From positions 48,112 to 112,111 of the IMG/VR virus record IMGVR_UViG_3300021138_000007: a stretch of DNA of 64,000 nt; one strand, written 5' to 3'. The translations under genes and the position numbers were made by a program. This stretch comes from a virus. Shown here piece after piece: positions 42,525-60,046 of the stretch. Each line of letters begins with the position of its first letter. The stretch's first letter is position 1. The notes under the pieces are model-generated. The model worked only from the letters and a program-made list of their open reading frames with translations. It was not told the origin of the DNA and ran no database searches.

Positions 42525-42842
42525 TTCTTAACTCCTTCGGTCCTGCCCCTCTTGGCTGAACCACACATAGTATACCTGATATGGTCAAGCCCTTCGCAAG
42601 CGTTGCTGAATTTATCGCAATATCACGTTTTATTTTACATCTTAAAAAACAAGGAGCGTATGCTATTTATGCAACATAATATTATAATATAAAATAGTTA
42701 ATATAAATAATTATGCAAAAAACGTCCCATTATGAATTTTAAGACGTAAAATAAATTGCTGATTTTTGAGCAATCAAATGCGTTGTCTCTATAGGGTATA
42801 ATATATGTGTAGTTTACCCTAGAGGGTAGGGGTTAAAATAAC

Positions 42843-43328
42843 ATGACATTAGAAGCGATTATTGAAACACTGGATAAAAAGCGACGTGGTACAATTAGCA
42901 CTGTATATTTGGACAGACCTGCACTTGTAAGAAGTAAATATCATGGTCCTGAAATTCGCAAAAAATCAGGAGTGCAGTTTTTGGCAAAAGTCGATTACTC
43001 AGACACAAATACAGTACGCCAAGCGGTTAAGAATGGCATTCGTCCTACGCCTCAAACACCGTCTTGGGTGGAAGAAGTTGTAATGCAAAAAGGTATTACA
43101 TTCTGGCGCAAAAAAGATCAATGGTACCTAGTTATGGTGCCAATCAAACCACTCAAAGTAACATGGACTCTTGACGGTAATACAGTACCAAAAGAATCAA
43201 TCCATGATTTTCTTCTTGCCGATGATGCAAAAGAAAGTAACTTCCAAGCAGAAAAATCAGATCGTGCAGAAAAAGGACATTCTGTTTATATTGTTGCTAA
43301 ATTAGAAAACATCTCAAAAATGATTTAA
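42843..43328 (+). CDS. hypothetical protein, ~160-aa family paralog B
   Basis: Clearly homologous to 42039-42524 (DRPA.V...Y.GPEIRK, WVEEV, FWRK..QWYL). Confidence 0.82.
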   Translation: MTLEAIIETLDKKRRGTISTVYLDRPALVRSKYHGPEIRKKSGVQFLAKVDYSDTNTVRQAVKNGIRPTPQTPSWVEEVVMQKGITFWRKKDQWYLVMVPIKPLKVTWTLDGNTVPKESIHDFLLADDAKESNFQAEKSDRAEKGHSVYIVAKLENISKMI

Positions 43329-43471
43329 TCGAAACAGCGACTCCCAAAATCCAGTACTAAATACTGGATTTTATTTTTGTCTTAAAATTCATGGAAGGAC
43401 GATTTTTGTTACTCTCTAACAATAAGATTTATTGCTAAATTCATAGCAATAAATATCGTTCCCTCTAACGT

Positions 43472-43738
43472 GTGATTGGGTATAATAAATACATTGTGCT
43501 GAGGACGCAGGGAAGTTATAAGTTTGCTGACACAAAAGAAACAGCAGAGTTTTGGGGATTCCTGCCTTTCTCTTACTGTTGTCAGGCTATTAGAGACAAT
43601 GTTATAATTCACGAAGCACGATATGAAATTTTTTGTCGTTCTCTAAATGATTTTGTAGCTATTGTTAAGATATGGAATGCTTTAGGAGAAATCAAGACAA
43701 AATACAGTACGATTCAATGGAGATATACGATTTGTTAG
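43472..43738 (+). CDS. small hypothetical protein; true start probably near 43496
   Basis: GGGTATAAT -10 box lies inside the annotated 5' end. Confidence 0.45.
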   Translation: MIGYNKYIVLRTQGSYKFADTKETAEFWGFLPFSYCCQAIRDNVIIHEARYEIFCRSLNDFVAIVKIWNALGEIKTKYSTIQWRYTIC

Positions 43739-43837
43739 AGTGTTACTCTAACTCACTTCTTGCGATGGCATAGTATCGCAAGAAGTGAGTTAACTCCAAC
43801 CCCTCAAACAAGCCCGTTGAAAAACGGGCCTTTATTG
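43727..43837 (+). ncRNA. structured RNA element, copy 1 (three hairpins)
   Basis: Near-duplicate at 45149-45252 with compensatory stem changes around a conserved GGCATAGT loop. Confidence 0.55.
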
Positions 43838-43935
43838 AAATAAGAGTCTTATCGTAATTTTTAAGACTCTAAAGAAAATTCGAAAAATTATTCGAAAAAT
43901 GCTCGATTTTTGTTTAGACCGTGGTATACTTATTA

Positions 43936-44096
43936 AGTCAACGATAAAGGTTGACATCGTTCAAAAGTCCATCTTAGGATGGCATTCGTCAACACAACAT
44001 ACGGGAAGCGCGTCCCGTAACGTGATCAACAGCTAGGTGCGAAAAAGGGCCTCACCTTGAGTCTTCTGTCAAAAGCAGAAGGAGGCCCTTTTTCTT
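43936..44096 (+). ncRNA. ORF-less structured RNA cassette
   Basis: TGGTATACT promoter; hairpins GTCAAC/GTTGAC, CCATC/GATGG, TACGGGA/TCCCGTA, AAAAAGGGCCT/AGGCCCTTTTT. Confidence 0.5.
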
Positions 44097-44193
44097 TTGC
44101 ATTTTTATATAAATAAACGTCCCATCATGAATTTTAAGACGTAAAATAAATTGCTGATTTTTCCGCTTGCTATAAAAATAGCAATAAAAACAC

Positions 44194-44221
44194 TTGACTT
44201 TTTAGTGTTTAGTAGTATACT
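44194..44221 (+). promoter_or_regulatory. sigma70-type early promoter
   Basis: TTGACT-N16-TATACT; near-identical copy at 46307-46334. Confidence 0.7.
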
Positions 44222-44252
44222 AGGCTATCGCTGAGGCGAGGGAGTAAAACAG

Positions 44253-44828
44253 ATGTTTATGAAACGCGACAAGTCCGACGATTTACAGAATGCCGCTTGT
44301 AATATCTTTGGATACAATGGTACTAAATTGAAAGCTGAGTTGGCTAAGGACAATATCGTTCAGTTGACTGACATGTATTGGCATGGTGGTACTAAAAGTT
44401 TCTATGCCATTATTGAATTGGCAACGATGAATTCAGTACCTTTGCCAAGTTTTCATCCTATGTTTGACGGTCAAGTACTTCCTGATAAGGTGGAACTTAA
44501 ACCAGGATACGTACTGGTTCGCCATATTAAATTCTGCGGAAGTGATTTAGGACTTGAGTTTATCGTTCATGCTGACGACTGGAAGAATTACGAACTTCCA
44601 GTACCCACCGAACTGAATAGGGATCAAAAGGTAGTACTTCTTTGTACTAAGTGCTATATTTCAAGTTATAGGCGCGAAGAAGCCAAAAGGTACGGTATTA
44701 AGGATTTTGACGCGATTAAGTCAGAGTTAATCGCTAAAGGACTTTTGTCCAAAATCGGAGCACTCACCGTAGAAGGTAAAAATGTTGCCAGTACTTTAGG
44801 CGACATCTATTCCTACTCTAAAAGATAA
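44253..44828 (+). CDS. hypothetical protein
   Basis: GGAG SD, own promoter and terminator. Confidence 0.75.
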   Translation: MFMKRDKSDDLQNAACNIFGYNGTKLKAELAKDNIVQLTDMYWHGGTKSFYAIIELATMNSVPLPSFHPMFDGQVLPDKVELKPGYVLVRHIKFCGSDLGLEFIVHADDWKNYELPVPTELNRDQKVVLLCTKCYISSYRREEAKRYGIKDFDAIKSELIAKGLLSKIGALTVEGKNVASTLGDIYSYSKR

Positions 44829-45002
44829 GTACTAAAATAAAAGGGAAGGATATTCATCTTCCCTTTTATTTTACGTCTTAAAATCTATGACGGGACGATT
44901 ATTGTAATAAAATTAAAAAAGTATTTTCACTATGGGATTTATTGTTATTATAAAAACAACTTTTATTATACTCTTAAACGTGTTTGAGGGTATAATAAAT
45001 AC

Positions 45003-45146
45003 ATGACGAATGAGGAGTTAGTAACAGAACTTCTGAAACTTAATCCTAAAGCAAAAATCAAGATTTTATCTTTGGATAGCATTGATAATCATGATTTGGT
45101 TAAGATTTATGGAGAACAAGATGTTATTATATTCGATCATCAATAA
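45003..45146 (+). CDS. 47-aa hypothetical protein (MTNEELVTELLKLNPKAKI...)
   Basis: Manual translation; GGGTATAAT-N7-ATG leaderless start. Confidence 0.6.
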   Translation: MTNEELVTELLKLNPKAKIKILSLDSIDNHDLVKIYGEQDVIIFDHQ

Positions 45147-45148
45147 AA

Positions 45149-45252
45149 ACGATTTGTTAGAGTAACACTCTAACGCACATCTTGTGATTGGCATAGTAGT
45201 CACAAGTTAACTCCAACCCTCAAACAAGCCCGTTGAAAACGGGCCTTTATTG
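45149..45252 (+). ncRNA. structured RNA element, copy 2
   Basis: Near-duplicate of 43727-43837. Confidence 0.55.
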
Positions 45253-45414
45253 CATTTAGAGTCCCGTCATGAATTTTAAGACGTAAAATAAATTGCTGAT
45301 TTTTGAACAAGTTATTGATACTTGAAAATTGCTCGATTTCCAACAAGAAAATACGTTTACCCTATATGGTAAACTATATGCGTCTGTGCCATGAGGGGCC
45401 AACAGGGAGTTAAA

Positions 45415-46167
45415 ATGCAAGTTTTAGATATTAACCTTTCGTCAACGATTAACCAGTTTGTAGAATTTGGTGAGGTTGCTATGGAGTCCGTAGAAACCGC
45501 CGTAAAGCGGTTTGCTGGGTTGAATCTGTACTTGAAGGTATCCAACTACTCTGAAGGCGGATACGACGACGAAACAGGCAGGGAGTGGCCTTCAGGGTGG
45601 AACTCTGAAACAGCTCCGTATGACGTTAAAAACGTAGTATGGCACTGTCTTGGATTGTCCCATATGGACACTGATGCTTTTCGAGAGGAGTTCGAGTCGT
45701 GGGCTACCGCGACTGAACAGGAGTTTCTTGCGTCTGCCATCCGATGTATAGCCTATGACGATGAGAACATTCAGGCTGAATTCTTGACCCCTGAACAGTT
45801 TCAGGAACAGGAACAAGCTGAATTCGTTCGACGTATGAACCTTGAGCGAGATCGGTACGAACCTATCGCTTGTCGGTTCGCTCACAAGCATGGAGTTAAA
45901 TTTGGTACTCCCGAATTTATGTCCAAGTTGGCAGATGCTTTAAGTACTGCCGAAGAAGATGAGCAGGAACGAAGGCATGGCATGAGGGAGGACGGTTTGT
46001 GCTGTACTGGGTACGGTTTTGGTAGCGCGGCTGTAAACGAATGGTACGATTCGTACAATACTCGTTTACCTGAACTCGTCGAACTTGAGGGACTTATGGA
46101 ATGGATTCAAGAATTCCAACCGCTTTTGTATTCTGTTTGGGAGTCCAGTAGACTACAAACAGCATAG
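45415..46167 (+). CDS. hypothetical acidic protein
   Basis: GGGAG SD before ATG at 45415. Confidence 0.7.
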   Translation: MQVLDINLSSTINQFVEFGEVAMESVETAVKRFAGLNLYLKVSNYSEGGYDDETGREWPSGWNSETAPYDVKNVVWHCLGLSHMDTDAFREEFESWATATEQEFLASAIRCIAYDDENIQAEFLTPEQFQEQEQAEFVRRMNLERDRYEPIACRFAHKHGVKFGTPEFMSKLADALSTAEEDEQERRHGMREDGLCCTGYGFGSAAVNEWYDSYNTRLPELVELEGLMEWIQEFQPLLYSVWESSRLQTA

Positions 46168-46364
46168 TCTAAAGTACTCAATAACTAGGAATGTAAAAAT
46201 TCCTAGTTATTGTTAATATATTAAAAAAAGTGTCCCGTTATGAATTTTAAGACGTAAAATAAATTGCTGATTTTTGAGTAAGCTGTAAAGATAGCAATAA
46301 AAGCACTTGACTTTTTAGAGAATAGTAGTATACTAAGTTATCGCTTTGAGGGCGATATGGAGTA

Positions 46365-46811
46365 ATGAAAATGTTTGATCGTTTAACAGAAACCGCGCTG
46401 GTGCCTTTCACTAATGATGAACTGAATCTTCTTTTGGATCGTCACTATGGAGTCGAAAGGAGTGACGACGACGGCAAGTCGATTATCACTGATATTTGGG
46501 ATGCTGTAGCCCCTTATACAGACGTATATGCAACACTGACACACTATCACATGACGGATTGGGAACCCGCTGAGGGTGGCTGTGGCATTTGGAAGGCAGT
46601 GGAGCAAAAAGCATGGCGCGTCGATGGCACTGTTACAGAAGACGATCTGGATGCCATTAGGGACGCAATCTTGTCTTCTCTAACAGACGTGCGAACCAAC
46701 GAGCAAGGTGAAATCGTAGGGTACTCAAACGACGGCGAAAAAGGTTCGTTTTCTGTTTACTTCACCGTCGGACGACCTTACGCACATATCCCCTATTTCG
46801 GATACTGCTAA
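46365..46811 (+). CDS. hypothetical acidic protein
   Basis: Own promoter, SD and terminator. Confidence 0.7.
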   Translation: MKMFDRLTETALVPFTNDELNLLLDRHYGVERSDDDGKSIITDIWDAVAPYTDVYATLTHYHMTDWEPAEGGCGIWKAVEQKAWRVDGTVTEDDLDAIRDAILSSLTDVRTNEQGEIVGYSNDGEKGSFSVYFTVGRPYAHIPYFGYC

Positions 46812-47064
46812 GAGTTAAAAGCAAGGGAAGTAATTTCCTTGCTTTTAATTTGTGTCTTAAAATTCATGACGGGACGCTTTTTGTAAAAAAGTTAAAATTA
46901 ATTATTTTTAACCATTATAATTTATTGTTATTTAAAATAGTAATAAAACGTTGTTTTATATCAATAATGGTATGATTTGTCGATTCATTCTCTAAATGAT
47001 TATTTTGCCTATATTTTAGCAATAAATCGTGGATATTATTTAGAGAGTGTGATATAATAAAGAC

Positions 47065-47205
47065 ATGAAAAAGTTTATTCTTCATTGGAAAGACGGAAAG
47101 AAAGAAGAAGTGACTGGCAATGATATTGCTAGTGCCTTTAGCAATGCGGGATATTCTCAAGGCGCGATTAGAGCCTTGGATTATTACGAAGAAGTCAAGA
47201 ACTAA
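47065..47205 (+). CDS. 46-aa hypothetical protein (MKKFILHWKDGKKEEVTG...)
   Basis: Manual translation; TGATATAAT-N6-ATG. Confidence 0.6.
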   Translation: MKKFILHWKDGKKEEVTGNDIASAFSNAGYSQGAIRALDYYEEVKN

Positions 47206-47426
47206 TATGAACTAAAAATAACATTTAGAGATAGATGTTATTTTTATTATAATGCATTTAGAGTCCCGTCATGAATTTTAAGATGTAAAATAAAATTAAA
47301 GATATTGCTTAAATTTTAGCTCGATTTATTACTACTCGAAAATTGCTCGAAAAATGTTCGAAAACACTCGATTTTTGCCAGCATATACGGTATTATATAA
47401 GAACATAAGGATACGGAGAACAGTAA

Positions 47427-47909
47427 ATGACTACAACTGAAATCGCTACCGCACTTGAATCCAAACCGAAGGGTTCCATTTTTACTCTGGTTGTTACACG
47501 CGCAGGCAAGGTGCGAAAGTCTTATGACGGTAAACCTATCACCAAGACTTCGATCATGCAGGGAATGACAAACGTCAACTATGCTGATCGTAAACCAGTA
47601 CGTGAAGCCGTCGCCAACGAGGAAAGGGATGCTCCCGAACTTCCATCCCATATTGAGGATACCTTTATGGTATCTAAGACACGATTCTGGAAGGGTAAGA
47701 ACGGTAAGGAGTATTTTCCTGTCTGTCTGACTGGTAATAAGCCGCAAGCACAATGGTACTTGGATGGTGAACCAGTGGACTTGGATACCATTAAGGATCA
47801 TCTTTTGGCTTCCGAGTACGCCGAACGAAAGGACAAGGAAACCACTGAGGACAAAGGTCAGGCCCTTTTCATCGGTGTCGAAGTTTCCAACGTAACGGAA
47901 GTACGATAA
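47427..47909 (+). CDS. hypothetical protein, ~160-aa family paralog C
   Basis: GKVRKSYDG..I.K; VREAV; FWK; WYLDG..V...IKDHLLA; KGQA.F. Confidence 0.8.
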   Translation: MTTTEIATALESKPKGSIFTLVVTRAGKVRKSYDGKPITKTSIMQGMTNVNYADRKPVREAVANEERDAPELPSHIEDTFMVSKTRFWKGKNGKEYFPVCLTGNKPQAQWYLDGEPVDLDTIKDHLLASEYAERKDKETTEDKGQALFIGVEVSNVTEVR

Positions 47910-48034
47910 ACTTCTGAAATTAAAAGTAGGAAAAGCAATTTTCCTACTTTTAATTTGTGTCTTAAAATTCATGACGGGACGATTATTTCAAAAATATTGT
48001 GTAAAATTATGCCTGATTATGGTATACTAACTGT

Positions 48035-48250
48035 ATGCCTACGAAGCGATATGATCGAACATGGTCGCAAATTTGCAATAAAGAAGGTAGCGTTTTAATT
48101 TATACTGAAGTTTTATGGTCCTCAAAATTCGGATCATCTTTTGTTACAATGAAGCGCGAACTTTACGAACAATTCGTGAAATCCAAAGAAAAGTATTTCT
48201 CAATTTTCATGAAAAAGAATAACATTACTAGCGTGATGTTAAAAGCCTGA
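48035..48250 (+). CDS. hypothetical protein
   Basis: TGGTATACT-N6-ATG. Confidence 0.55.
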   Translation: MPTKRYDRTWSQICNKEGSVLIYTEVLWSSKFGSSFVTMKRELYEQFVKSKEKYFSIFMKKNNITSVMLKA

Positions 48251-48264
48251 GGTAAAATTAGAAC

Positions 48265-48657
48265 ATGGCTGCAAAGAATGAATGGACCTTAAAAACATGG
48301 GACTGCGATAATAGCGGAAATAAATGCTGGGTTAAGAAATTTGGCAAAGGAGAAGTTAGTGTTGGTGTTGGAACATTTCTTTTAGTCAACTTTTCTTATG
48401 GTCCTAATTCCGATCATTCTATGTCAGGCACTCGCTGGCATTATGGCACAACCATTTCAGAACAAGATATGATGAACTGGATTGACGAAAACGAAGGAAA
48501 ACATAAATCAATGCCAGTCGATCCAAAACTTTACAAAGATTGGTTTGATTCATGTTCAAAAGAAGTGCAAGATGCACTTTTGGCAGTTGGACAACCCTGG
48601 CATCAATTGTGTCTGAATGATCATAATCGAAAACTGGGAAATTTGAGGTATACTTAG
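48265..48657 (+). CDS. hypothetical protein
   Basis: ORF track. Confidence 0.6.
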   Translation: MAAKNEWTLKTWDCDNSGNKCWVKKFGKGEVSVGVGTFLLVNFSYGPNSDHSMSGTRWHYGTTISEQDMMNWIDENEGKHKSMPVDPKLYKDWFDSCSKEVQDALLAVGQPWHQLCLNDHNRKLGNLRYT

Positions 48658-48660
48658 AGC

Positions 48661-48984
48661 ATGGCTAAGAAACCAAAAATCGTAGTCGATACGCCTTATC
48701 TAAATAGTTGGGCACATCAAGAAAAACTCAATCAGCAAGCCATTGAAGATGAAAAGAAATTGCCATTTCGACAAATGATTGAAGCTAGGAAAAAGCGACT
48801 AGCGAAAGAGATTGAAAGTGCCAAGAATTGCAATATCATCTTTAAAAATGAAAATATTGCATGGTATATGAGACTTTTCTACTGTGATAGAGAAACAGCA
48901 AGAAAAGAACTTGGTTATAGTCCTCCTCTTGCAACTGTATCTTTTGAAGAATATCGCAATTGTCCTTTCCGTGGAGGAGGATAG
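48661..48984 (+). CDS. hypothetical protein
   Basis: GGTATACT-N6-ATG; followed by a GGGC-TTCG-GCCC terminator. Confidence 0.6.
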   Translation: MAKKPKIVVDTPYLNSWAHQEKLNQQAIEDEKKLPFRQMIEARKKRLAKEIESAKNCNIIFKNENIAWYMRLFYCDRETARKELGYSPPLATVSFEEYRNCPFRGGG

Positions 48985-49005
48985 GGCTTCGGCCCTTTTA
49001 TTTTG
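48983..49005 (+). terminator. GGGC-TTCG-GCCC terminator fused to a reverse dyad site
   Basis: Same hairpin near 50189, 55730 and 58209, variant near 59362; the U-tract is the conserved arm of the dyad site. Confidence 0.8.
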
Positions 49006-49034
49006 TGTCTTAAAATCTATGGACGGACGATTAT

Positions 49035-49260
49035 TGTAAGTTTATATATAACTCGATGTCCTGTATACACACTGGTATACAGGACATCAGCATTTGTTAA
49101 ATAACTAGGGAGTGAGTCTAGTCATTTAACTACTCGGCCCAATGCCAAGGCCCCGTCAAGGTCGGACTGTTTTTTATTCTACACTTTAAAGATTATGTTA
49201 TCGCTTCATATGTGTTTTAAGTTCCTCCCGCCAGCGCCGTCTCTAAATCACACTGACTCT
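49035..49260 (-). ncRNA. candidate ~200-nt ORF-less RNA cassette
   Basis: Minus-strand TTGACT-N17-TATTAT promoter at 49264-49292; no meaningful ORF; hairpins GTTAAATGACTAG/CTAGTTATTTAAC and GATGTCCTGTATAC/GTATACAGGACATC. Confidence 0.45.
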
Positions 49261-49402
49261 TATATAATACCTTAACTGTGTATCGAAGTCAAGCATTTTA
49301 GAAAAATATTTTACATTTAAATTAAAATAAGCGTCTCGTCATCTTTTTTAAGGCATAAAGTAAAAAGCTCTAGTCTTTTTACTTTATGCAAGAATGATTC
49401 AC

Positions 49403-49768
49403 TTATGGATATACATAGTATTCCACTTTCACTTCACCAGATTGCAACATACTTACCATAGCAATTCCCCCAAGCCAGCCATATCCTTTCTCATTATAGC
49501 CAACATGAATGCTTGTATTGTCGATGCCAATTCCCTTGAACCATTCACAAATTTGTTTGGCTTTCTCAATGGCTTTTTCAGGAGAATTGAATTTATTCAA
49601 ATATCCTGCACCGCCAAAATAAGAATTATTCACAAGTAAACTTGTATCCACTGTTTTATTGTCTTTGTCGTCTTTTGGCGTGCTAAGACTATCCGCCAAA
49701 GGATAATCAGGCATATTCTCAATTTCTTCACGACGCTTCCAAAAATCGTTAGACTTAAAAACGCTCAT
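49403..49768 (-). CDS. hypothetical protein (MSVFKSND...)
   Basis: TGGTATACT-N6-ATG. Confidence 0.6.
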   Translation of the reverse strand: MSVFKSNDFWKRREEIENMPDYPLADSLSTPKDDKDNKTVDTSLLVNNSYFGGAGYLNKFNSPEKAIEKAKQICEWFKGIGIDNTSIHVGYNEKGYGWLGGIAMVSMLQSGEVKVEYYVYP

Positions 49769-49894
49769 ATACGTAGTATACCACATAATTTATAAAAATA
49801 AACAACTATTTTGAAATAATCGTCCCCTCATAAATTTTAAGACGTAAAATAAATCATTGACTTTCTAAGATCATGATGGTATACTATTTAAGCT

Positions 49895-50188
49895 ATGCAA
49901 ACAATCAACACCACTTTCGGTGAAGCTCGAATCGAAACTACCAAATACCAGCTTGGCGGTTTGGCTGTTTTTCTGATCGACAATCATAACGGGGAGCCTA
50001 TCGCAACTCTATCTACGTGTATTCCTGATCATGTTCACAAACTTGAAGAAGGTGAATTCTTCGTCAAGAATTGGTCAGAAAATGAAACTTTGGCACAAGA
50101 AGCATTTGAATCAGGGTTATTCATTGACACTGGCAAGAGTGCAGCCACTGGATATGTTGTTGCACCAGTCTGGAAATTCAAAGATTAA
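49895..50188 (+). CDS. DUF4313-like protein
   Basis: Y...LA..L...GEP.ATLS...F.KNWSEN...L...G......GY pattern; TTGACT/TATACT promoter. Confidence 0.6.
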   Translation: MQTINTTFGEARIETTKYQLGGLAVFLIDNHNGEPIATLSTCIPDHVHKLEEGEFFVKNWSENETLAQEAFESGLFIDTGKSAATGYVVAPVWKFKD

Positions 50189-50306
50189 GGGCTTCGGCCC
50201 TTTTATTTTGTATCTTAAAATCTATGGACGGACGGTTATTATAATTTTTTTGAATTTTTATAAAATCATTGACTTCGATTATCATAAGGGGTATAATAAT
50301 TCTGTT

Positions 50307-50645
50307 ATGGAAATTTCAAAGCTCGAAAAGCCAAGTGTCGTCATTGCCAACGGGGTTGCCTATCTCGGAAAGGTTGTCGAAAAGGACAACAAAATCACAA
50401 TCGAAAACGCCTTTCCCCTTGGAACTCCAAAGGAAATCAAAGCCAATGACCTCATGGACTATATGGAAACTGCCTACAGTGAAAAGCTCACAAAGCTGAC
50501 TGTCGGCGGAACAAGCTCATGGACGTGCGTCGAACTTGATGAGGATTTGAGCATTTCTTGGGATGTCGCCAAGCTCAATCTAACTCGCGCTATCAAGCTC
50601 GGCCCCATCACTTGCGTTATTGACGCTTTCAACAAAATGCGATAA
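50307..50645 (+). CDS. hypothetical protein (MEISKLEK...)
   Basis: TTGACT-N17-TATAAT promoter immediately upstream. Confidence 0.6.
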   Translation: MEISKLEKPSVVIANGVAYLGKVVEKDNKITIENAFPLGTPKEIKANDLMDYMETAYSEKLTKLTVGGTSSWTCVELDEDLSISWDVAKLNLTRAIKLGPITCVIDAFNKMR

Positions 50646-50654
50646 AGGAGCAAC

Positions 50655-51152
50655 ATGAGAATTTTCTTTCCAGAAGAAAATTCTGTTACTGAGGGTACTA
50701 AGTCCTCAGTAACAGAAACTCAATCAAAACCCGCAAAAGCTCAAAATTCTTTCGAACTTGAAACAAAGTTGAAGGAAGTTGAATTTGAATTGAAGAAATG
50801 TCAGCAATCACTTAGGGATACTGAGCGTCGTTTGCAGGACGCAAAGCGCAATAATGTCAATATCTTTGAGACTGAAGTTAAAAATGTCAGGCTCATTGGT
50901 AGTGATAGCGACGGTGATCGTACCGAATGGTGCGCTAAAATGTTCCTTCACGAATCTGGTCATACCTTCTTTGTTCTTACAGAAGATGATGAGGAATGCG
51001 ATCTGTTGAATGAAGCAGTTGAAATTCTTGAGGGTGAAGAGGAGATCAAAATCCAAGGTGAAGCAATCGTTTTCTCTCCTAATTTAGCACGTAGATACGT
51101 TGTTGAATACGTGAGCGGATACGATGACGGTATTTGGCAACGATGTTATTGA
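50655..51152 (+). CDS. hypothetical protein
   Basis: AAGGAG SD. Confidence 0.65.
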   Translation: MRIFFPEENSVTEGTKSSVTETQSKPAKAQNSFELETKLKEVEFELKKCQQSLRDTERRLQDAKRNNVNIFETEVKNVRLIGSDSDGDRTEWCAKMFLHESGHTFFVLTEDDEECDLLNEAVEILEGEEEIKIQGEAIVFSPNLARRYVVEYVSGYDDGIWQRCY

Positions 51153-51226
51153 TTTGTAATAGATTGGAAAAAGGACTTTTCCAATCTATTACAGTTGACA
51201 ATTTTGTTTTTTGTTGGATATAATAT

Positions 51227-51307
51227 AAATGTAGCCAGTTGAAGTTCTTTACTCACCTGCTGGAAGACTCAACGTGAAAGAACGCAGGTAATCTTTCAGC
51301 TACATTT
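51227..51307 (+). ncRNA. candidate ~80-nt pseudoknotted small RNA
   Basis: TTGACA-N18-TATAAT promoter; closing stem AAATGTAGC/GCTACATTT; interleaved pairings GTTCTTT/AAAGAAC and ACCTGC/GCAGGT. Confidence 0.5.
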
Positions 51308-51386
51308 TTATTTTGTATCTTAAAATCTATGGACGGACGCTTTTTGTCATTTAATAGCTAAAGGAGAATTTCTTCTCCTTTAGCTA

Positions 51387-51545
51387 TTATTCTAAATCAG
51401 TAGGATTGATTTTGTTTCTTTCTGATTTAGAAGTTCTTTGATGTTTTGGACTTCCGTAAATAGCCGCATTCCCTGCCCAACGAAATTTGGTACACATAGA
51501 ACAGCGGATTTGACGCCGTGTTTTCTTTGACTTAAAGTGAGCCAT
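51387..51545 (-). CDS. 52-aa basic CxxC peptide (MAHFKSKKTRRQIRCSMCTK...)
   Basis: Manual translation; start overlaps the end of the upstream ORF. Confidence 0.5.
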   Translation of the reverse strand: MAHFKSKKTRRQIRCSMCTKFRWAGNAAIYGSPKHQRTSKSERNKINPTDLE

Positions 51546-51729
51546 CTTGAAGTCGCCTCATAGTTTCTCTTTCCTCATTATGGATAGATGAACGATCTTG
51601 TCTGTCTTTGCGTTTATGAACGCCCGTTCCTGCCTTTGATTGAGGAGTAGAATGAAAGAATCCGTCGAGATGATGCTTAGTTACATCTTTGGATGACATC
51701 GTGAATCGTCGCTTAGATTTGTTGCCCAT
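51532..51729 (-). CDS. small basic hypothetical protein
   Basis: GGAG SD; GTGVHKRKDRQDR. Confidence 0.55.
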   Translation of the reverse strand: MGNKSKRRFTMSSKDVTKHHLDGFFHSTPQSKAGTGVHKRKDRQDRSSIHNEERETMRRLQDGSL

Positions 51730-51858
51730 TTTTATGACTCCAATAAAGACATTATACCATACTTCAGCGCGAAATGTAACTTTTATTTTTACATCTTAAA
51801 ATAAACGATGAGACGCTTGTTACAATAAACTCGAAAAAACTCGATTTTTATATTGTAA

Positions 51859-52098
51859 TTAATTTTCCTTTTCTTCGATAAAGATATTATTATCTTTCAT
51901 ATAATTCACTGTTCCTACAAGTGACATACGTGGTTTGAAAGAATTACGAATGAAGCCAATAGCCTCATTTGGATTTACGAAAGGATATGGCTCACCTTCG
52001 GCATTCAGCATATATTTGGTCTTGTGAGTTTTTGGACTCACGGAAGCAAGATAAAACATGATACATATATCATACCCGAAAGTAAATAAATGATACAT
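51859..52098 (-). CDS. small hypothetical protein; start probably MFYLASV
   Basis: ORF track. Confidence 0.45.
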   Translation of the reverse strand: MYHLFTFGYDICIMFYLASVSPKTHKTKYMLNAEGEPYPFVNPNEAIGFIRNSFKPRMSLVGTVNYMKDNNIFIEEKEN

Positions 52099-52196
52099 GA
52101 TATTCTTGTGATTTTAAACGCAAAAATTAAACAACAAACGTCTGACCATAAATTTTAAGATGGTAAATAAAATGTGATATATGGTATACTGTAATC

Positions 52197-52463
52197 GTGG
52201 AAAATAATTTAGGGTTCGTTGGATATAGTGATCGCGGATATCCTATTTATGAACTTGATTGTCGAGCGCGTTGTTTCAAATGCAATGAACTTTTAGTAAA
52301 TACTGGTCATGATCGTTTCACAGGTCATAGAGGCGGATATTGCTGCAATTGTCATATGACTACAAGTTATGATCTTCCAGAGGAACGATTGCACTTTATT
52401 TACAATGAGATGATGGGACATCAGCAGGGATATCGCCATGAATCAACAACAGTAGTGGAGTAA
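52197..52463 (+). CDS. zinc-ribbon hypothetical protein
   Basis: CFKC...CCNC; TGGTATACT-N6-GTG. Confidence 0.55.
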   Translation: MENNLGFVGYSDRGYPIYELDCRARCFKCNELLVNTGHDRFTGHRGGYCCNCHMTTSYDLPEERLHFIYNEMMGHQQGYRHESTTVVE

Positions 52464-52467
52464 AAAC

Positions 52468-53319
52468 ATGAATGATCCAAAAGTAGTAGCAGAAGTTTTA
52501 TCAAAACTCGTGTTGTTTCCAGTATTTGTTTCCATGTCTTTTAAAAATACATCAAAAATTCAAAGATGTAAAATGAAAGATAATGTCTTATATGACAATG
52601 CTGGGAATATGTATTTTCCTACTCAAATGGATGGTAGTATTACTCCTCCATTTGGGACTTTTATTCATAAATATGGCAAAATCAGACAATATGAAGATGG
52701 TGATTATTATGCTTATTGTGGCACCGTAAAGCATGATATCACTCTTGAAAAATTGGAACAGTGGCAGAAAAAACCATTAAGAAAGTCATATGGTTCTGGG
52801 AAGTTTGGGAAAGAAATGTACGAAAGGGATGTCACTGCTTGGAAACTTACAACATTCAATAGCGTTGGGTGGAAAGAGTTTATCGAATTATTTCCAACGG
52901 AATATCCTGGATTTACTGTTTTGAAACAAATCGGCAATGAATCTTTTGTTCCCAAAGCAAAGGAAATCTATTTAGATAGATATGATTTTAATATCTATTA
53001 CAATGAATGGCCGCAAAGAGAAACGATTTTTGAATTTAGCGCCCATTATCCATTAAGTAATTATATGGATAAAATTGTCATGGATAATTGGGAACGACAG
53101 TACTGTCCTTGGTTTAACATGAAATGGGAATTTCAACATTTTGTTGACGAAATGTCATCAGAATTTATGAATACACATTTCTACAATAAAAATAATTGGA
53201 CATTTCATGATGGGGAACAGCATCGTGAATACGCAGTTTCCAAACCTGCAATGATTGAACTCCTGAATGCAGAAATTGTAAGAATCTGGAATCTGTACGA
53301 AGATAAGAAATACTATTAG
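52468..53319 (+). CDS. hypothetical protein
   Basis: 283-aa ORF. Confidence 0.7.
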   Translation: MNDPKVVAEVLSKLVLFPVFVSMSFKNTSKIQRCKMKDNVLYDNAGNMYFPTQMDGSITPPFGTFIHKYGKIRQYEDGDYYAYCGTVKHDITLEKLEQWQKKPLRKSYGSGKFGKEMYERDVTAWKLTTFNSVGWKEFIELFPTEYPGFTVLKQIGNESFVPKAKEIYLDRYDFNIYYNEWPQRETIFEFSAHYPLSNYMDKIVMDNWERQYCPWFNMKWEFQHFVDEMSSEFMNTHFYNKNNWTFHDGEQHREYAVSKPAMIELLNAEIVRIWNLYEDKKYY

Positions 53320-53430
53320 TATAAGGGGAAATTTTCCCCTTATACTAATAGTATTGAATTAAGCGTCTAATCATAAATTTTAAGATACAAAATAAAATGT
53401 GGTATGTGGTATACTGAGTGTGGAGTAAAC

Positions 53431-54054
53431 ATGAATACTACTGCTCGTGTCTTAACATCTTCTCGCGGCAAGACAGTTACAACAGAATTGACTGATGAAC
53501 AGGCTTATGTGATCTGTAAAACGCTTAAAGGCGAGTTTATTGAAAGCATTACAAAGCGTCCATTCGTTCGCTTGACGCCCGATCAAATCGTTTGGCTACA
53601 TATCTACGCTCAACCAAAGCCAGAGCCACAAAAAGTCAAAATCACTGACAACTTTTCAAACATTATTGCACTATTTAATAGTGCAGTAAATTCCAAGTTG
53701 CTTAGACCTAAAATTCGCTTGTCAGTAAACGGATTTAACATCAAAATCAGCATGGCTTCTAAACATAGCAAGAATGCTGGTTATGTCTATGTGACAAGTG
53801 GCGTTACTGGGGCCGTAAATGACTATTACGGCAAGATTAGTCCCGAAGGTGAGTTCTACCCTGGAAAGAACTGTTTCGACGGTTTATATGCGTTTTTAGA
53901 GCGGTTTAGCGCATATCCTGCGGAAGTGGCGGCGGAATATGGTAAACGCACTGGAAGATGCTGTTTTTGCGAACATGAGTTGACTGATGATCGCTCAGTC
54001 AAAGTAGGCTATGGGCCTATCTGCGGTAGACATTATGGCTTGCCTTGGAATTAA
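53431..54054 (+). CDS. DUF6011-domain protein
   Basis: C-terminal YG..TG.CCFC...LTDDRSV.VGYGPIC. Confidence 0.78.
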   Translation: MNTTARVLTSSRGKTVTTELTDEQAYVICKTLKGEFIESITKRPFVRLTPDQIVWLHIYAQPKPEPQKVKITDNFSNIIALFNSAVNSKLLRPKIRLSVNGFNIKISMASKHSKNAGYVYVTSGVTGAVNDYYGKISPEGEFYPGKNCFDGLYAFLERFSAYPAEVAAEYGKRTGRCCFCEHELTDDRSVKVGYGPICGRHYGLPWN

Positions 54055-54210
54055 TTAAAATGGCAGTAAGAAATTGCTGCTATTTTAATTAAACAACAAT
54101 AATCGTCGCGCCATAGATTTTAAGACGTAAAATAAATTGCTGATTTTTAAGCAATAAATAAGCGTAGATTCTTTCGTATATATGGGTATACTCTTGATCA
54201 CGAGGTTGAA

Positions 54211-55101
54211 ATGAAGAGTTCCAAACCAAATAGTTATGATCTTATCACTGATCGCATGATCCAAGCGTTAGAAAATGGCACTTGTCCTTGGCGCAAACCT
54301 TGGTCCGCTTGCGGTAATGCCATCAACGCGGTATCAGGAAAGCGGTATCGTGGTGTAAACGTCTTTATGCTTGCTTTTAACGATTATGCTGACCCCCGTT
54401 GGTTGACGTATAAGCAGGCGCAAGAATTGGGCGGTAACGTCAAGACGGGCGAAAAGGGTACTTATATCTACTTTTATAAGTGGGTACAAAAGCCCGATGC
54501 AAATGACCCTAGTAAGGTGGCAACGTATCCTTTATTCCAAAGGTTCGTAGTATTCAACGTCTCACAATGCGAAAATCTGAAGCTGAAACCACTGGAAGTT
54601 AAGGACGATAACGAACCATTGGTAAAGGCCGAAGCAATTATCGAGTACATGAGTAACAAGCCCGTTGTACGATTCGGCGGCAATAGAGCTTGTTACCATC
54701 CTACTACTGACGTAGTTTGTATGCCAACCTTGCAAAGTTTCGACAGTTCAGAAGAGTATTACAGTACGTTCTTTCATGAACTTGCTCACGCTACTGGACA
54801 TTCGTCACGTCTTAACCGTAAAGAAATTACAGAATCCAAGGTGACTTTTGGTGATTGTGACTACTCCAAAGAAGAACTTGTGGCAGAACTCACCGCCTCT
54901 ATGGTATGTTGCACTCTTGGAATTGACAATAATCAGTCATTCGAGAACTCAGCAAGTTACCTTCGTAATTGGCTTGGCGTACTAAAGAAAGATATGAAAA
55001 TCTTTGCAGAAGCCGCTGGTAAGGCACAAAAAGCCGCTGACTTCATTATGGGAGTATCTTTCGCTCAGGAACAAGACAGTACCGAAGAACTCGCGGCATA
55101 G
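54211..55101 (+). CDS. ardC: ArdC-like antirestriction/ssDNA-binding protein with zincin domain
   Basis: PWRKPW, YRGVN, WLTYKQA...GG.V..GEKG, VFNVSQ, HELAHATGH..RL.R, YS.EELVAEL, SASYL..W. Confidence 0.92.
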   Translation: MKSSKPNSYDLITDRMIQALENGTCPWRKPWSACGNAINAVSGKRYRGVNVFMLAFNDYADPRWLTYKQAQELGGNVKTGEKGTYIYFYKWVQKPDANDPSKVATYPLFQRFVVFNVSQCENLKLKPLEVKDDNEPLVKAEAIIEYMSNKPVVRFGGNRACYHPTTDVVCMPTLQSFDSSEEYYSTFFHELAHATGHSSRLNRKEITESKVTFGDCDYSKEELVAELTASMVCCTLGIDNNQSFENSASYLRNWLGVLKKDMKIFAEAAGKAQKAADFIMGVSFAQEQDSTEELAA

Positions 55102-55262
55102 GAATAACATTAAAAGTAAGGAAAGCAATTTCCTTACTTTTAATTTGCGTCTTAAAAAACATGGACGGACATTTATTGTTATTATGTTTAATAATGATAA
55201 ATTGCTATCCAAAAAGCAATAAATAATAGCTCATATGTATCATGTAATGGTATACTATCTAT

Positions 55263-55514
55263 ATGCAGCTAACCCTCACGTACCGAGAAGCATTAAGTTT
55301 GATTGCAAGAGAACACTGTGTGCGTCCTGAAGATGTAAATATCATTGGATTAGGGTCTGATGATATTATTCAGGCTCTCAAAGATGATGACAAACTGAAT
55401 GCCATTAAACTCGCAAGATATAAGTATGGCATGGGTTTGAAAGATGCAAAAGAATTCGTTGAAAAGATCGGCACAACTGATCCTGACATTTTGGTGGTGG
55501 TGACAAACACATAA
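55263..55514 (+). CDS. ribosomal protein L7/L12 C-terminal-like domain protein
   Basis: KLNAIKLAR...GMGLKDAKEFVE. Confidence 0.7.
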   Translation: MQLTLTYREALSLIAREHCVRPEDVNIIGLGSDDIIQALKDDDKLNAIKLARYKYGMGLKDAKEFVEKIGTTDPDILVVVTNT

Positions 55515-55729
55515 TGTGGCAAGAAAGAATCAAAACACGTTTCGTTGAAGAATACGCCTATACTCGCAATAATGTTCTTTGCGGTAAAGTGAGGTCAAAT
55601 CCTTTCTTAATTCGTATTGTTGCAGAAGTTTATATCCCCAAGGATGGAGAACTTCAAGGCAAGACACTGACATTTCGTTGCAGTAAAATCGACGATGCAA
55701 AACACATTGTCGAAACATACTTCAAATAA
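55514..55729 (+). CDS. hypothetical protein
   Basis: Translationally coupled (TAATG). Confidence 0.55.
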   Translation: MWQERIKTRFVEEYAYTRNNVLCGKVRSNPFLIRIVAEVYIPKDGELQGKTLTFRCSKIDDAKHIVETYFK

Positions 55730-55822
55730 GGGCTTCGGCCCTTTTTATTTGCGTCTTAAAAAACATGAGAAGACCTTTATTTCAATATTAAAACAAAAAG
55801 CCTGTTTTGCAGGCTAGTTGTT

Positions 55823-56230
55823 TTAACTAAAGTTATCGTAATACATCAAATCATAAGTGCCAGGTCCATGCTTAATATCATGAGTTTCTTTACATCTCAT
55901 AAGTTGATTTGGCCCTAGATCGGCCCGATTCTTTTGAAGATATTCGTTTGTCAAAGGTTCAGTACGATTGAAACTTCTTTTAGTGATGATATTAATCATC
56001 TCTTGCGGGGTAATCTCGGCACCGTATTCGTCTAAAATTCCGTATTCAGGATTATTGAATTGTTCGATCCATTCTTCAAGAGTTTTGAAAACAGTAGCAC
56101 AAAGTAAAAAACACCAGCCAGCAGATGATTTGCCGATATGCACGTTTTTTACTTGTACTTCCAAGAATAAATCTGATTCTGGAAGATTTTCAGGTTGTTT
56201 TCTCCTGTAGAGATAATAGTTCGTACCCAT
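55823..56230 (-). CDS. hypothetical phage protein
   Basis: MGTNYY...HIGKSSAGW.F...I.DEYG motif pattern. Confidence 0.7.
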   Translation of the reverse strand: MGTNYYLYRRKQPENLPESDLFLEVQVKNVHIGKSSAGWCFLLCATVFKTLEEWIEQFNNPEYGILDEYGAEITPQEMINIITKRSFNRTEPLTNEYLQKNRADLGPNQLMRCKETHDIKHGPGTYDLMYYDNFS

Positions 56231-56350
56231 ATATCTAGTATACCATAGATTTCGAAAATTAAATACATATTTTTAAAGTAAATGTCTTCCCACGATTTTT
56301 AAGATACAAAATAAAAGTGTGAGAATTACTATTCCCACACTTTTACTATT

Positions 56351-56752
56351 TCATCCAAAGATGATTTCGTCAAATACAGCAAATTGGATAATGCAGTCCG
56401 CAACTTCTGCATCCATATCTTCAAGAAAATTGATTGTCTTTTTCCATTCTGCGTACTTCTTGATGCCTTCTTTGAGTGAATCAAGTGTTAATGGAATATA
56501 GTTTTCATAATCATCCGTGCTGAACGGTTGTCCTGTTTCAGTATCGTACAATTCCCATCTGAATCCTTCAGGGCTATAGTATTCGTCGCTTGTGGGGTCG
56601 CTAGGTTGTGTTCCTTCAACCAATCTGGCTTCGGCACACCAATAGTCAATACCGCCTTCAAATGCCGTGCAAATGATTTCATTGATTTGCAGTTGCGTAA
56701 GAGGGCGATCAAGCGTGACCTGAATAGTGCAAATAACTTTTGTTTCTGGCAT
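56351..56752 (-). CDS. hypothetical phage protein
   Basis: A.EGGI.YW...DAE.AD.I.Q.A.F.E...G. Confidence 0.7.
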   Translation of the reverse strand: MPETKVICTIQVTLDRPLTQLQINEIICTAFEGGIDYWCAEARLVEGTQPSDPTSDEYYSPEGFRWELYDTETGQPFSTDDYENYIPLTLDSLKEGIKKYAEWKKTINFLEDMDAEVADCIIQFAVFDEIIFG

Positions 56753-56885
56753 AGCATCAATAGTATACCATAGATTTCGAAAAAATCAATAGCCCTCGAA
56801 AATAAAAGTGTCTCGCCATGATTTTTAAGACGTAAAATAAATTCGAAAAAACTTCGATTTTTGAAAAATGTGTGGTATAATATTT

Positions 56886-57019
56886 GCGTTGAGTGGTAAA
56901 GATAGTTCGAAATGTCTTGCCCGTTGAAGTACAAGACGCATCAACTAGCCAGAGAAGCGGGTTCGATTCCCGTTATGGGCAATCTCATATAGCATTAAGT
57001 GGGTAATGCGCTGGTGAAA
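56886..57019 (+). ncRNA. YrlA-like Y RNA / circularly permuted tRNA mimic
   Basis: In order: GCCAG, T-arm GCGGG-TTCGATT-CCCGT, acceptor stem TATGGG-CAAT-CTCATA closed by a loop, TA, D-arm GCATT-AAGTGGGT-AATGC, G, CTGGT (pairs with GCCAG). TGGTATAAT promoter upstream and terminator at 57020-57057. Confidence 0.72.
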
Positions 57020-57084
57020 GTATAGAGAAATAAACGAATAGTTTTATTTCTCTATACGAATAAATTCTGAGGTATACTGTAATC

Positions 57085-57333
57085 ATGCTCAAAAACGACA
57101 GACCTTTTCTCACTGAATTGCGATCCATCTATAATGGAGCTTTAGCGGCTCATATCAATAAGATTAAAAGCCTAATGAAAGAGGCCGCAGCAGAAGGGGC
57201 AAATTACATTGTTTATAAAATGCCTTTGGGTCCAATGTCAAGCAAAATTCAAGTTCTTTTTCAAGCAGAAGAGGGGATTCGAGTTTCTGGAACTGACGAG
57301 GGCCTTTACATTACTTGGACTTGGGAAGATTAG
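57085..57333 (+). CDS. hypothetical protein, paralog of 62656-62910
   Basis: AA.EG and L.I.W shared; GGTATACT-N6-ATG. Confidence 0.6.
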   Translation: MLKNDRPFLTELRSIYNGALAAHINKIKSLMKEAAAEGANYIVYKMPLGPMSSKIQVLFQAEEGIRVSGTDEGLYITWTWED

Positions 57334-57346
57334 GTATACTGTAATC

Positions 57347-57604
57347 ATGGCAAAAATTGAATACCTGCTCACTGCGTTAGATGATAAAGGTAATATTCTG
57401 GCGAGAAAAATTCATATTGGACAACAGAATGGCACTCAGCGCGGTATCCAAAGAGCTTTCGATAACGCACGTAAAAAATCAGTGCTTTTGTTGGATTCTG
57501 TTCCAAACGCCAAACGATGCGAAATGGAAAGAATTTTCAAAACAGATAACAATCAATACACGGATTCGTATGGTACAATTATCGAAGGATTCACATGGAA
57601 GTAA
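57347..57604 (+). CDS. hypothetical protein (MAKIEYLL...)
   Basis: AGGTATACTGTAATCATG, identical to the start of the preceding gene. Confidence 0.6.
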   Translation: MAKIEYLLTALDDKGNILARKIHIGQQNGTQRGIQRAFDNARKKSVLLLDSVPNAKRCEMERIFKTDNNQYTDSYGTIIEGFTWK

Positions 57605-57831
57605 AAATTCTTGATCAATTGTTTGAAATGCAATCTACTGAAAATGACGGCAGAGGCATTTCAGCAGTACGTGAATTAGTCAAAATACTGCGTAATCCAG
57701 ACCATACGCAAGAACAACTGAAAACCGCAGTTTACTGGGATTGGGATAAAATTGCAAATTATCCTGAGATTGCAAACTTCATCAAGAAAAACATCTATGA
57801 TGATTCGACAATGTATGTTCGTGAGGTATAA
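57595..57831 (+). CDS. hypothetical protein
   Basis: ORF track. Confidence 0.55.
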   Translation: MEVKILDQLFEMQSTENDGRGISAVRELVKILRNPDHTQEQLKTAVYWDWDKIANYPEIANFIKKNIYDDSTMYVREV

Positions 57832-57839
57832 TTAAAGAG

Positions 57840-58205: not shown

Positions 58206-58308
58206 AAAGGGCTTCGGCCCTTTTTTATTTTACATCTTAAAATTCATGATGGGACGATTGTTGATACTTTATGTTAAATGCCCTTTTCAGGGCATTTAAC
58301 GTGGTATT

Positions 58309-58530: not shown

Positions 58531-58675
58531 AGCATAGATAGTATAGCATAGTTTGACGAGAAAGTCAAATTTATTTTACATCTTAAAATCTATGGCGGGA
58601 CCAGCTTTGCAATATTTTAAAAATTATATAAATAGTTGACTATTACTTGTGAGCGTCAGGTATACTTATTTTACT

Positions 58676-59825: not shown

Positions 59826-59846
59826 GACTGTATGATACTTTATGTG

Positions 59847-60032: not shown

Positions 60033-60046
60033 ACTCGAATTATCGG

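What the first reader, a model, noticed from the sequence alone, without database searches (positions are those of the whole stretch)
43369..46876. Same cassette chassis, unrelated cargo
Seen: cassettes 43369-43880 and 44864-45295 share a promoter context (CTC(T)TAA(A)CGTGT...GGGTATAATAAATACA) and the same 3' RNA element abutting a forward site, yet encode unrelated peptides. Cassettes 44118-44897 and 46231-46876 share forward site + TTGCTGATTTTT + TAGCAATAAAA.CACTTGACTTTTTAG...TAGTAGTATACTA..TATCGC...GGCGA...GGAGTAA but carry unrelated ORFs. A TAAAAG..GGAA.G.AATTTCC...CTTTTAA terminator recurs near 46815, 47920 and 55110. Inference: ORFs are exchanged inside reusable expression frames.
Basis: partly seen in the sequence, partly recalled or inferred. 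Interest (0 to 1): 0.72.

Follow-up and report, generated by a model that had tools for sequence, protein, structure and literature searches.

The report
Reused gene-expression frames in giant phage
An uncultured freshwater giant phage expresses about 35 unrelated small early genes from a small set of repeated promoter, terminator and boundary pieces, a variant of the promoter-terminator cassettes (PeSLs) already known from T4-like phages.

Summary
Window 42.6-60.8 kb is an array of about 30 self-contained transcription units. In it, repeated DNA covers 39% of the non-coding bases and 0.26% of the coding bases. Their ORFs show no similarity by BLASTP or by profile comparison.

5' and 3' modules assort independently, and cargo GC3 ranges from 0.22 to 0.49. 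Every unit boundary carries one asymmetric core, TCTTAAAA-N3-ATG-N4-GAC. There are 27 copies, in both orientations, at tandem, divergent and convergent junctions.

The closest complete relative (G001) has the same architecture at the syntenic locus, with its own diverged boundary site, and shares only 3 cargo genes. The orthologous ArdC gene lies in a different lineage-specific frame in each of three phages. No tyrosine, serine or IS110-type recombinase was found.

Best reading: PeSL-like composite terminator/site/promoter modules that serve both as expression signals and as homology patches for recombination. The core is probably a protein-binding site. Actual exchange events were not observed. 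This scan has already reported PeSL-like arrays in several other phage genomes.

The parts
42616..60738 (.). Whole cassette array: about 30 transcription units, 27 boundary sites
   Evidence: All copies of the site in the 112-kb contig lie in this stretch. GC is 0.36-0.40 here against 0.28-0.35 elsewhere.
42724..42745 (-). Boundary site core (divergent junction)
43379..43400 (+). Boundary site core, between a terminator and the leaderless-type promoter L1
43455..43495 (+). L1 promoter context, copy 1
   Evidence: alignment
43496..43738 (+). Cargo of L1 cassette 1: an 80-codon frame with a GTG start, possibly non-coding RNA
   Evidence: no Pfam or PHROG match
43727..43840 (+). 3' structured RNA element with terminator, copy 1
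   Evidence: no Rfam family
43846..43867 (-). Degenerate boundary site
   Evidence: 7 mismatches
44119..44252 (+). S1 5' chassis, copy A: site, TTGCTGATTTTT box, dyad, sigma-70-type promoter, UTR hairpin, SD
44253..44828 (+). Cargo A (191 aa, an ORFan with 2 metagenome homologues)
44836..44896 (+). Terminator T3 with boundary site. The same module is found in contig L052.
   Evidence: 83% over 90 nt to L052 2680-2766
44965..45002 (+). L1 promoter context, copy 2
45003..45146 (+). Cargo of L1 cassette 2 (47 aa, leaderless)
45149..45255 (+). 3' structured RNA element with terminator, copy 2
45261..45282 (-). Boundary site core
46232..46364 (+). S1 5' chassis, copy B
   Evidence: 86.8% over 114 nt to copy A
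46365..46811 (+). Cargo B (148 aa, unrelated to cargo A)
46815..46875 (+). Terminator T1, copy 1, with boundary site
47263..47284 (-). Boundary site core
47427..47909 (+). Cargo: a 160-aa family with paralogues at 42039-42524 (-) and 42843-43328 (+). It is one of 3 cargo families shared with G001.
47920..47980 (+). Terminator T1, copy 2, with boundary site
54105..54126 (-). Boundary site upstream of ArdC
54211..55101 (+). Cargo: ArdC-like anti-restriction gene. Its orthologue lies in the arrays of G001 and G004.
55110..55170 (+). Terminator T1, copy 3, with boundary site
49007..60720 (.). The other boundary site cores start at 49007+, 49333-, 49822-, 50212+, 51317+, 51793+, 52140-, 53365-, 55753+, 56284-, 56810-, 58234+, 58580+, 59385+ and 60699+ (22 nt each)

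Best explanation
Window 42.6-60.8 kb is the hyperplastic early (host-takeover) region of a roughly 360-kb phage. It is a row of autonomous mini transcription units built from a small repertoire of regulatory parts:
- a boundary module;
- two promoter classes: sigma-70-type with leader and SD on one side of the boundary, and leaderless GGTATAMT-N6-ATG on the other;
- a 5'-UTR hairpin;
- three or four terminator types;
- a 3' structured RNA.

The boundary module is asymmetric. Its T-rich arm serves either as the U-tract of a terminator reading into it, or as the A-tract directly upstream of a -35 box reading away from it. Next comes the core TCTTAAAA-N3-ATG-N4-GAC, and then the arm GATTATTG.

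Shown: the parts are reused around unrelated ORFs of heterogeneous composition. 5' and 3' parts assort independently. The architecture is conserved at the syntenic locus of relatives, while the sequence of the parts is lineage-specific and the cargo is almost entirely different.

Inferred: as with PeSLs of T4-type phages, the 40-130-bp conserved parts act as homology patches for the phage's own UvsX-type recombination. ORFs are therefore gained, lost and swapped between intact expression signals, and the parts are homogenised within each genome (concerted evolution).

Also inferred: the core, which is under position-specific selection, is the binding site of a sequence-specific protein, either a regulator or an insulator of the array, and not a crossover site.
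For: Reuse of parts:
- Repeats lie almost only in non-coding DNA.
- Only one paralogous family exists among 36 ORFs.
- Neither cassette pair shows cargo homology.
- Similarity ends at the start codon, not at the site.
- 5' and 3' modules combine independently: cargos A and B share a 5' module, but their 3' modules match different partners.

Cargo:
- Cargo GC3 averages 0.349 (sd 0.075), against 0.221 (sd 0.047) for core ORFs.
- Cargo genes are ORFans or moron-like: ArdC, GP88-like, DUF6011.

Comparison with other contigs:
- L052 shares only the boundary modules (83-93% identity) and no protein similarity. It still belongs to the same phage clade, because its PARP-like gene is 60% identical to one in G001.
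- G001 (DNA polymerase 62% identical, collinear core) has 22 copies of its own site. Nineteen of them lie in the syntenic 41-59 kb, with the same terminator/site/promoter grammar.
- Only 3 of about 37 G001 array ORFs are shared with the G000 array.
- ArdC orthologues are flanked by inverted sites of the G000 type in G000 and of the G001 type in G001, and by a third type of module in G004.

The core and the recombination machinery:
- Conservation across the site is strongly position-specific (chi-square 248, p = 7e-32).
- A UvsX-like recombinase and an SbcC-like protein are encoded in the window.
- PeSL properties are taken from PMC2839356 and PMC4122927.
Against: - No exchange event was seen directly. 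No near-identical genome pair could be fetched.
- Similarity between sites does not fall significantly with distance (rho 0.086, p = 0.10), so ongoing local gene conversion is not demonstrated.
- The neighbouring region at 32.7-41.6 kb is just as poorly conserved in G001 and has no sites. High turnover therefore does not need the sites.
- Sites also lie at 4-5 convergent junctions that have no promoter. A purely promoter-linked regulator site does not explain these.
- No binding protein was identified.
- Promoters and terminators are predictions from sequence only.
Confidence: 0.6

Rival explanations
1. Regulatory constraint alone. The genes are old and stay where they are. Their flanks look alike only because all of them must be read by the same host or phage factors, or are homogenised by gene conversion. 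No ORFs are swapped.
For: The ArdC orthologue stays in place while its frame differs in each lineage. Conservation within the core is position-specific. In G001 the site lies at a fixed distance of about 28 nt upstream of the promoter in at least 14 of 23 copies. T4 early promoters are also long and uniform (my own knowledge).
Against: Identity of 87% over 114 nt includes spacer and UTR positions. Only 3 cargo genes are shared with the syntenic G001 array. Cargo GC3 is heterogeneous and unlike the core. The order of the macro and PARP-like genes differs between L052 and G001.
Confidence: 0.2
2. A site-specific cassette system resembling an integron or shufflon. A recombinase cuts within the 22-bp core and inserts, excises or inverts cassettes.
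For: There is one asymmetric, highly conserved core at every boundary, including convergent junctions without promoters. Both orientations occur, and many cassettes are flanked by inverted copies.
Against: No Phage_integrase, Resolvase or IS110 DEDD domain was found in the complete 379-kb G001 or in the 112 kb of G000, and the controls were positive. The TnpB-like genes of G001 lie 85-275 kb away from the array. Chassis similarity breaks at ORF borders, not inside the core. Site orientation is not fixed relative to the cargo. The cassettes carry their own promoters.
Confidence: 0.08
3. Cassettes are small mobile elements bounded by terminal inverted repeats (transposon- or MITE-like). The inverted sites would be their ends.
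For: S-type units such as 44119-44896, 46232-46875 and 54105-55170 are flanked by inverted sites.
Against: No target-site duplications flank these units (read directly). The units in between are flanked the opposite way round. Tandem junctions with direct sites also exist (45261/46232). No transposase lies in or near the array.
Confidence: 0.04
4. Whole-cassette duplication, followed by divergence of the ORFs beyond recognition.
For: One real paralogous family exists (three copies, 31-48% identity).
Against: Non-coding flanks are 84-98% identical while the ORFs show nothing by BLASTP or profile comparison. The ORFs differ in length and in GC. 5' and 3' parts assort independently.
Confidence: 0.03

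Closest known systems
PeSLs (promoter-early stem-loops) of T4-type phages RB49/phi1, PST/T4 and nt-1/KVP40 (PMC2839356, PMC4122927)
   Same: Both are composite terminator-plus-early-promoter repeats of 50-100 bp. Both are concentrated in a hyperplastic region of ORFans and carry lineage-specific sequence versions. In both, the repeats flank genes that differ between relatives. In both cases the phage has its own homologous-recombination machinery.
   Different: - Here a strongly conserved asymmetric 22-bp core lies between terminator and promoter. It is neither a hairpin nor a -35/-10 box.
- The module occurs in both orientations and at convergent junctions.
- Each arm is tied to a different promoter class, one of them leaderless.
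- 5'-UTR and 3'-RNA parts are reused as well.
- The phage is a roughly 360-kb uncultured freshwater phage, and it was not shown to be T4-type.
- Mini-circles, and indels between close relatives, were not observed.
Integron cassette arrays (attC/attI with IntI)
   Same: Both are rows of single-gene cassettes with unrelated cargo, separated by a recurring site.
   Different: There is no tyrosine recombinase. The sites are not hairpin-forming attC-like repeats and are not all in one orientation. Each cassette has its own promoter and terminator.
Dispersed asymmetric operators of a phage-wide regulator, such as the C1 operators of phage P1 (my own knowledge, not tested here)
   Same: Both have many copies of an asymmetric site of about 20 bp, in both orientations, next to promoters across a phage genome.
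   Different: Here the sites lie upstream of promoters or at promoter-less junctions and do not overlap the promoters. They are confined to one 18-kb region, and no cognate protein is known.

Membership tests
PeSL-type regulatory cassettes | The repeat contains a sigma-70-like early promoter | tested here: met
   TTGACT-16-TATACT at 44194 and 46307. GGTATAMT-N6-ATG occurs 16 times against 0.11 expected. These are sequence predictions only.
PeSL-type regulatory cassettes | A stem-loop terminator or attenuator is joined to the promoter | tested here: met
   Hairpin plus T-tract lies directly next to the site in the junctions where a gene reads into it.
PeSL-type regulatory cassettes | Concentrated in a hyperplastic region rich in ORFans | tested here: met
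   All 27 copies lie in 18 kb. 4 of 32 array ORFs have a G001 homologue, against 29 of 53 to the left of the array. Almost no Pfam or PHROG matches.
PeSL-type regulatory cassettes | Indels and replacements between close relatives are bounded by the repeats | tested here: inconclusive
   Only distant relatives were available (G001, L052, G004).
PeSL-type regulatory cassettes | Mini-circles formed by recombination between neighbouring repeats | not testable with these tools
   This needs PCR or read-level data from a lysate or metagenome.
Integron | IntI-type tyrosine recombinase | tested here: not met
   PF00589 is absent from G000 (112 kb, a partial genome) and from the complete G001. All 14 controls were positive.
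Integron | Promoter-less cassettes, each ending in an attC site, all in one orientation | tested here: not met
   The cassettes have their own promoters. The sites are asymmetric, 14 in one orientation and 13 in the other.
Shufflon | Rci-type recombinase, with inverted sites inside one coding region | tested here: not met
   There is no tyrosine recombinase. The sites are intergenic.

The most novel reading that the evidence does not exclude
The 22-bp asymmetric core is the recognition site of an unrecognised recombination or nicking activity, either a protein of no known recombinase family or an RNA-guided one. This activity would actively insert, excise or invert single-gene cassettes, making the array a phage counterpart of an integron with self-expressing cassettes.
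Probability: 0.08. Interest if true: 0.85.

Novelty: new variant of a known kind. Interest (0 to 1): 0.45.

Why it matters
- It extends the PeSL principle from T4-like phages to an uncultured lineage of giant freshwater phages. In PeSLs, regulatory parts double as joints for gene shuffling.
- It adds a feature that PeSLs lack: an invariant, orientation-free boundary core. At positionally orthologous junctions this core evolved in concert within each genome.
- The array marks the phage's early, anti-defence gene set, since ArdC lies inside it. It therefore points to about 30 unknown host-takeover candidates.
- It supplies a compact set of natural promoters, terminators and insulator-like boundaries that can be tested.
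- The core gives a concrete bait for finding the regulator of the region.

Tried and rejected
- **Known RNA families and tRNAs:** none in the window.
- **Phage and plasmid collections:** blastn found nothing.
- **G000-type site elsewhere:** absent from IMG/VR apart from its own record, from 19 related records and from GTDB genomes. One metagenome contig (L052) has it.
- **G001-type site elsewhere:** found only in G001.
- **Loci related to ArdC, the 160-aa family or cargo B:** none carried the site or a close relative.
- **A mini-ORF in the right arm** (M-x-G-R-L-L-stop in several copies, with variation at third codon positions): rejected as coding. The homologous G001 frame contains stop codons or lacks a start in many copies.
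- **An RNA-level role for the site:** unlikely. The site lies downstream of terminators and occurs in both orientations relative to transcription.
- **A dyad operator in G000:** the apparent palindrome is not conserved across copies.
- **Distance-dependent similarity of sites:** not significant.
- **The 160-aa family as the site binder:** the model is confident (pLDDT 95.8), but no clear fold match was found. Foldseek gave nothing at E <= 0.001, and the best VIA Z of 4.5 (to WYL/Sm-like barrels) is within noise.
Full report
**Source.** The window is the last 64 kb of a 112,111-bp IMG/VR virus contig that CheckV rates 31% complete, which implies a genome of about 360 kb. The contig encodes a DNA polymerase, a DnaB-like helicase, a UvsX-like recombinase and an SbcC-like protein. 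Nothing similar is present in the phage or plasmid collections.

**Checking the observation.** The 'forward site' is real. A 24-nt probe with up to 3 mismatches finds 10 copies, against 0 in shuffles. Looser scans and repeat finding give 27 copies, all between 42.6 and 60.8 kb and none elsewhere in the 112 kb.

Both cassette pairs share their frames as described:
- The first pair (43369-43880 and 44864-45295) shares a 24-base promoter motif that occurs only at 43467 and 44977. It also shares a three-hairpin 3' RNA element that is 86% identical.
- The second pair shares 114 nt at 86.8% identity (E = 2.6e-32). The match runs from the site to the Shine-Dalgarno sequence and stops at the start codon.
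- The terminator at 46815, 47920 and 55110 is 84-90% identical and follows three unrelated genes.

The paired ORFs are unrelated. BLASTP gives E = 5, or no alignment at all. Small profiles built from metagenome homologues give an hhalign probability of 0.08%.

Over the whole array, repeated DNA covers 39% of non-coding and 0.26% of coding bases. Of 36 ORFs, only one 160-aa family is paralogous.

**Anatomy.** I oriented all 27 sites the same way. The consensus is a T-rich arm (TTTTATTTTAC), then the core rTCTTAAAA-N3-ATG-N4-GAC, then G-aTTaTTG. Mismatches are very unevenly distributed along it (chi-square 248, p = 7e-32). Seven consecutive positions and the GAC are invariant, and the spacers vary freely.

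The two arms behave differently:
- The T-rich arm is either the U-tract of a hairpin terminator of a gene reading into the site, or, read on the other strand, the A-tract just upstream of a -35 box (TTGACT type) of a gene reading away.
- The other arm faces either a leaderless-type promoter or the terminator of a converging gene. The leaderless-type promoter GGTATAMT-N6-ATG has 16 copies in 44.9-63.9 kb against 0.11 expected.

All junction types carry a site: about 19 tandem, 5 divergent and 4-5 convergent. This explains the alternating site orientation in a row of same-strand genes. Units with a sigma-70-type promoter, leader and SD alternate with leaderless units, and each class uses its own arm of the site.

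5' and 3' parts combine independently. Cargos A and B share a 5' module. Cargo A's 3' end is closest to that of the GP88-like gene, and cargo B's is closest to those of the 160-aa gene and ArdC.

Cargo GC3 ranges from 0.22 to 0.49 (mean 0.349). Core ORFs average 0.221, and the intergenic frames are uniform. Cargo genes are ORFans or moron-like: ArdC, GP88-like, DUF6011 and an L7/L12 C-terminal-like protein.

**Relatives.** One metagenome contig, L052, carries two copies of the same site with the adjoining terminator or promoter. These are 83% identical over 90 nt and 93% over 54 nt to window copies. L052 has no protein-level similarity to the 112-kb contig. It still belongs to the same phage clade, because its PARP-like gene is 60% identical to a G001 gene. 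The order of the macro and PARP-like genes differs between L052 and G001, and in G001 the macro gene is a cassette flanked by sites.

G001 is a complete 378,848-bp record whose DNA polymerase is 62% identical. Its core is collinear with window 1.5-32.6 kb. At the syntenic position it has 22 copies of its own 28-nt site, 19 of them in 41-59 kb, in both orientations. The grammar is the same: terminator, T-rich arm, site, then a promoter motif about 28 nt further on. Some copies lie at convergent junctions. Repeats are again mostly non-coding (35% against 4%), and only 3 of about 37 array ORFs are shared with G000, in the same order.

ArdC is the clearest case. In G000 and G001 the orthologue is flanked by inverted sites with the T-rich arms facing inward. 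Each pair of sites matches its own genome's consensus and not its positional orthologue. In the more distant G004, ArdC lies between copies of a third module: a hairpin plus a leaderless promoter, with more than 55 copies, all direct. The G000 and G001 sites share rTG and ACGAT-y-ATT at matching positions, so they are probably homologous. The G001 site also shares the motif GATTGTG with G004, where AGATTGTG occurs 108 times in 40 kb against 1.4 expected.

**Mechanism.** The frames evolve in concert within each genome, and the cargo turns over between genomes. Chassis similarity breaks at ORF borders, not inside the core. This is the PeSL picture: conserved terminator/promoter composites in hyperplastic regions that act as preferred sites of homologous recombination (PMC2839356 and PMC4122927). 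The phage has the recombination genes this needs.

A site-specific system is unlikely. No tyrosine, serine or IS110-type recombinase is detectable in the complete G001 or in G000, and the controls were positive. The three TnpB-like genes of G001 lie far from the array. There are no target-site duplications, and site orientation is not fixed relative to the cargo.

The position-specific conservation, the fixed distance to promoters in G001, and the lineage-specific versions all suggest that a sequence-specific protein binds the core. What that protein does is open. The copies at promoter-less convergent junctions fit an insulator or boundary role better than a classical operator.

**Limits.**
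- Similarity between sites does not fall significantly with distance.
- The neighbouring region at 32.7-41.6 kb has no sites and is also poorly conserved in G001.
- All promoters and terminators are sequence predictions.

**Context in this scan.** PeSL-like arrays have already been reported in several other phage genomes. The kind is therefore not new. The boundary core and its concerted evolution at orthologous junctions are the distinctive points here.

Noticed in passing
window 42039-42524 (-), 42843-43328 (+), 47427-47909 (+): A 160-aa family with three paralogues of very different GC (50%, 37%, 47%). It has one orthologue at the edge of the G001 array and 18 metagenome clusters. The AlphaFold model is very confident (pLDDT 95.8), but there is no clear PDB fold match (best Z 4.5, to WYL/Sm-like barrels).
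   Followed up: partly
window, right arm of most boundary sites (e.g. 44886-44906, 49018-49038, 50223-50243): A recurrent 6-codon mini-ORF (M-x-G-R-L-L-stop) whose variation falls at third codon positions. The homologous G001 frame has stops, so it is probably not coding, but the periodicity is unexplained.
   Followed up: partly
window 43920-44100: A unit with its own promoter and a strong terminator but no plausible ORF. This is probably a cargo RNA of about 160 nt. There is no Rfam match above threshold.
   Followed up: no
window 44989-63881: Sixteen copies of GGTATAMT-N6-ATG, which look like leaderless starts. They include a tight row of minus-strand genes at 61-64 kb (PRTase and receiver-domain-like proteins) that has no boundary sites.
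   Followed up: partly
L239/L240 (G004 30-70 kb): A more distant relative has more than 55 direct copies of a hairpin plus leaderless-promoter module. AGATTGTG occurs 108 times in 40 kb, including tandem arrays with periods of 14 and 46 nt. This suggests a dedicated DNA-binding protein.
   Followed up: partly
G001 145160-145360, 318061-318291, 335404-335604: Three TnpB-like (Cas12f1-like_TNB) genes in a 379-kb phage genome.
   Followed up: no
L052 1-545 and 3194-4480; G001 32154-35240: A macro-domain gene and a WGR/PARP-like gene occur together in both phages but in opposite order. This may be an ADP-ribosylation pair.
   Followed up: no
window 55263-55514: An 83-aa cargo protein matches the C-terminal domain of ribosomal protein L7/L12 (Pfam E = 4e-6).
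   Followed up: no
window 43428-43455, 44163-44185, 42753-42775, 54134-54160, 55195-55222: A second recurrent element lies between site and promoter: an AT-rich dyad (TTGCT-N6-9-AGCAA, often followed by TAAATA). It could be another operator or a hairpin.
   Followed up: no
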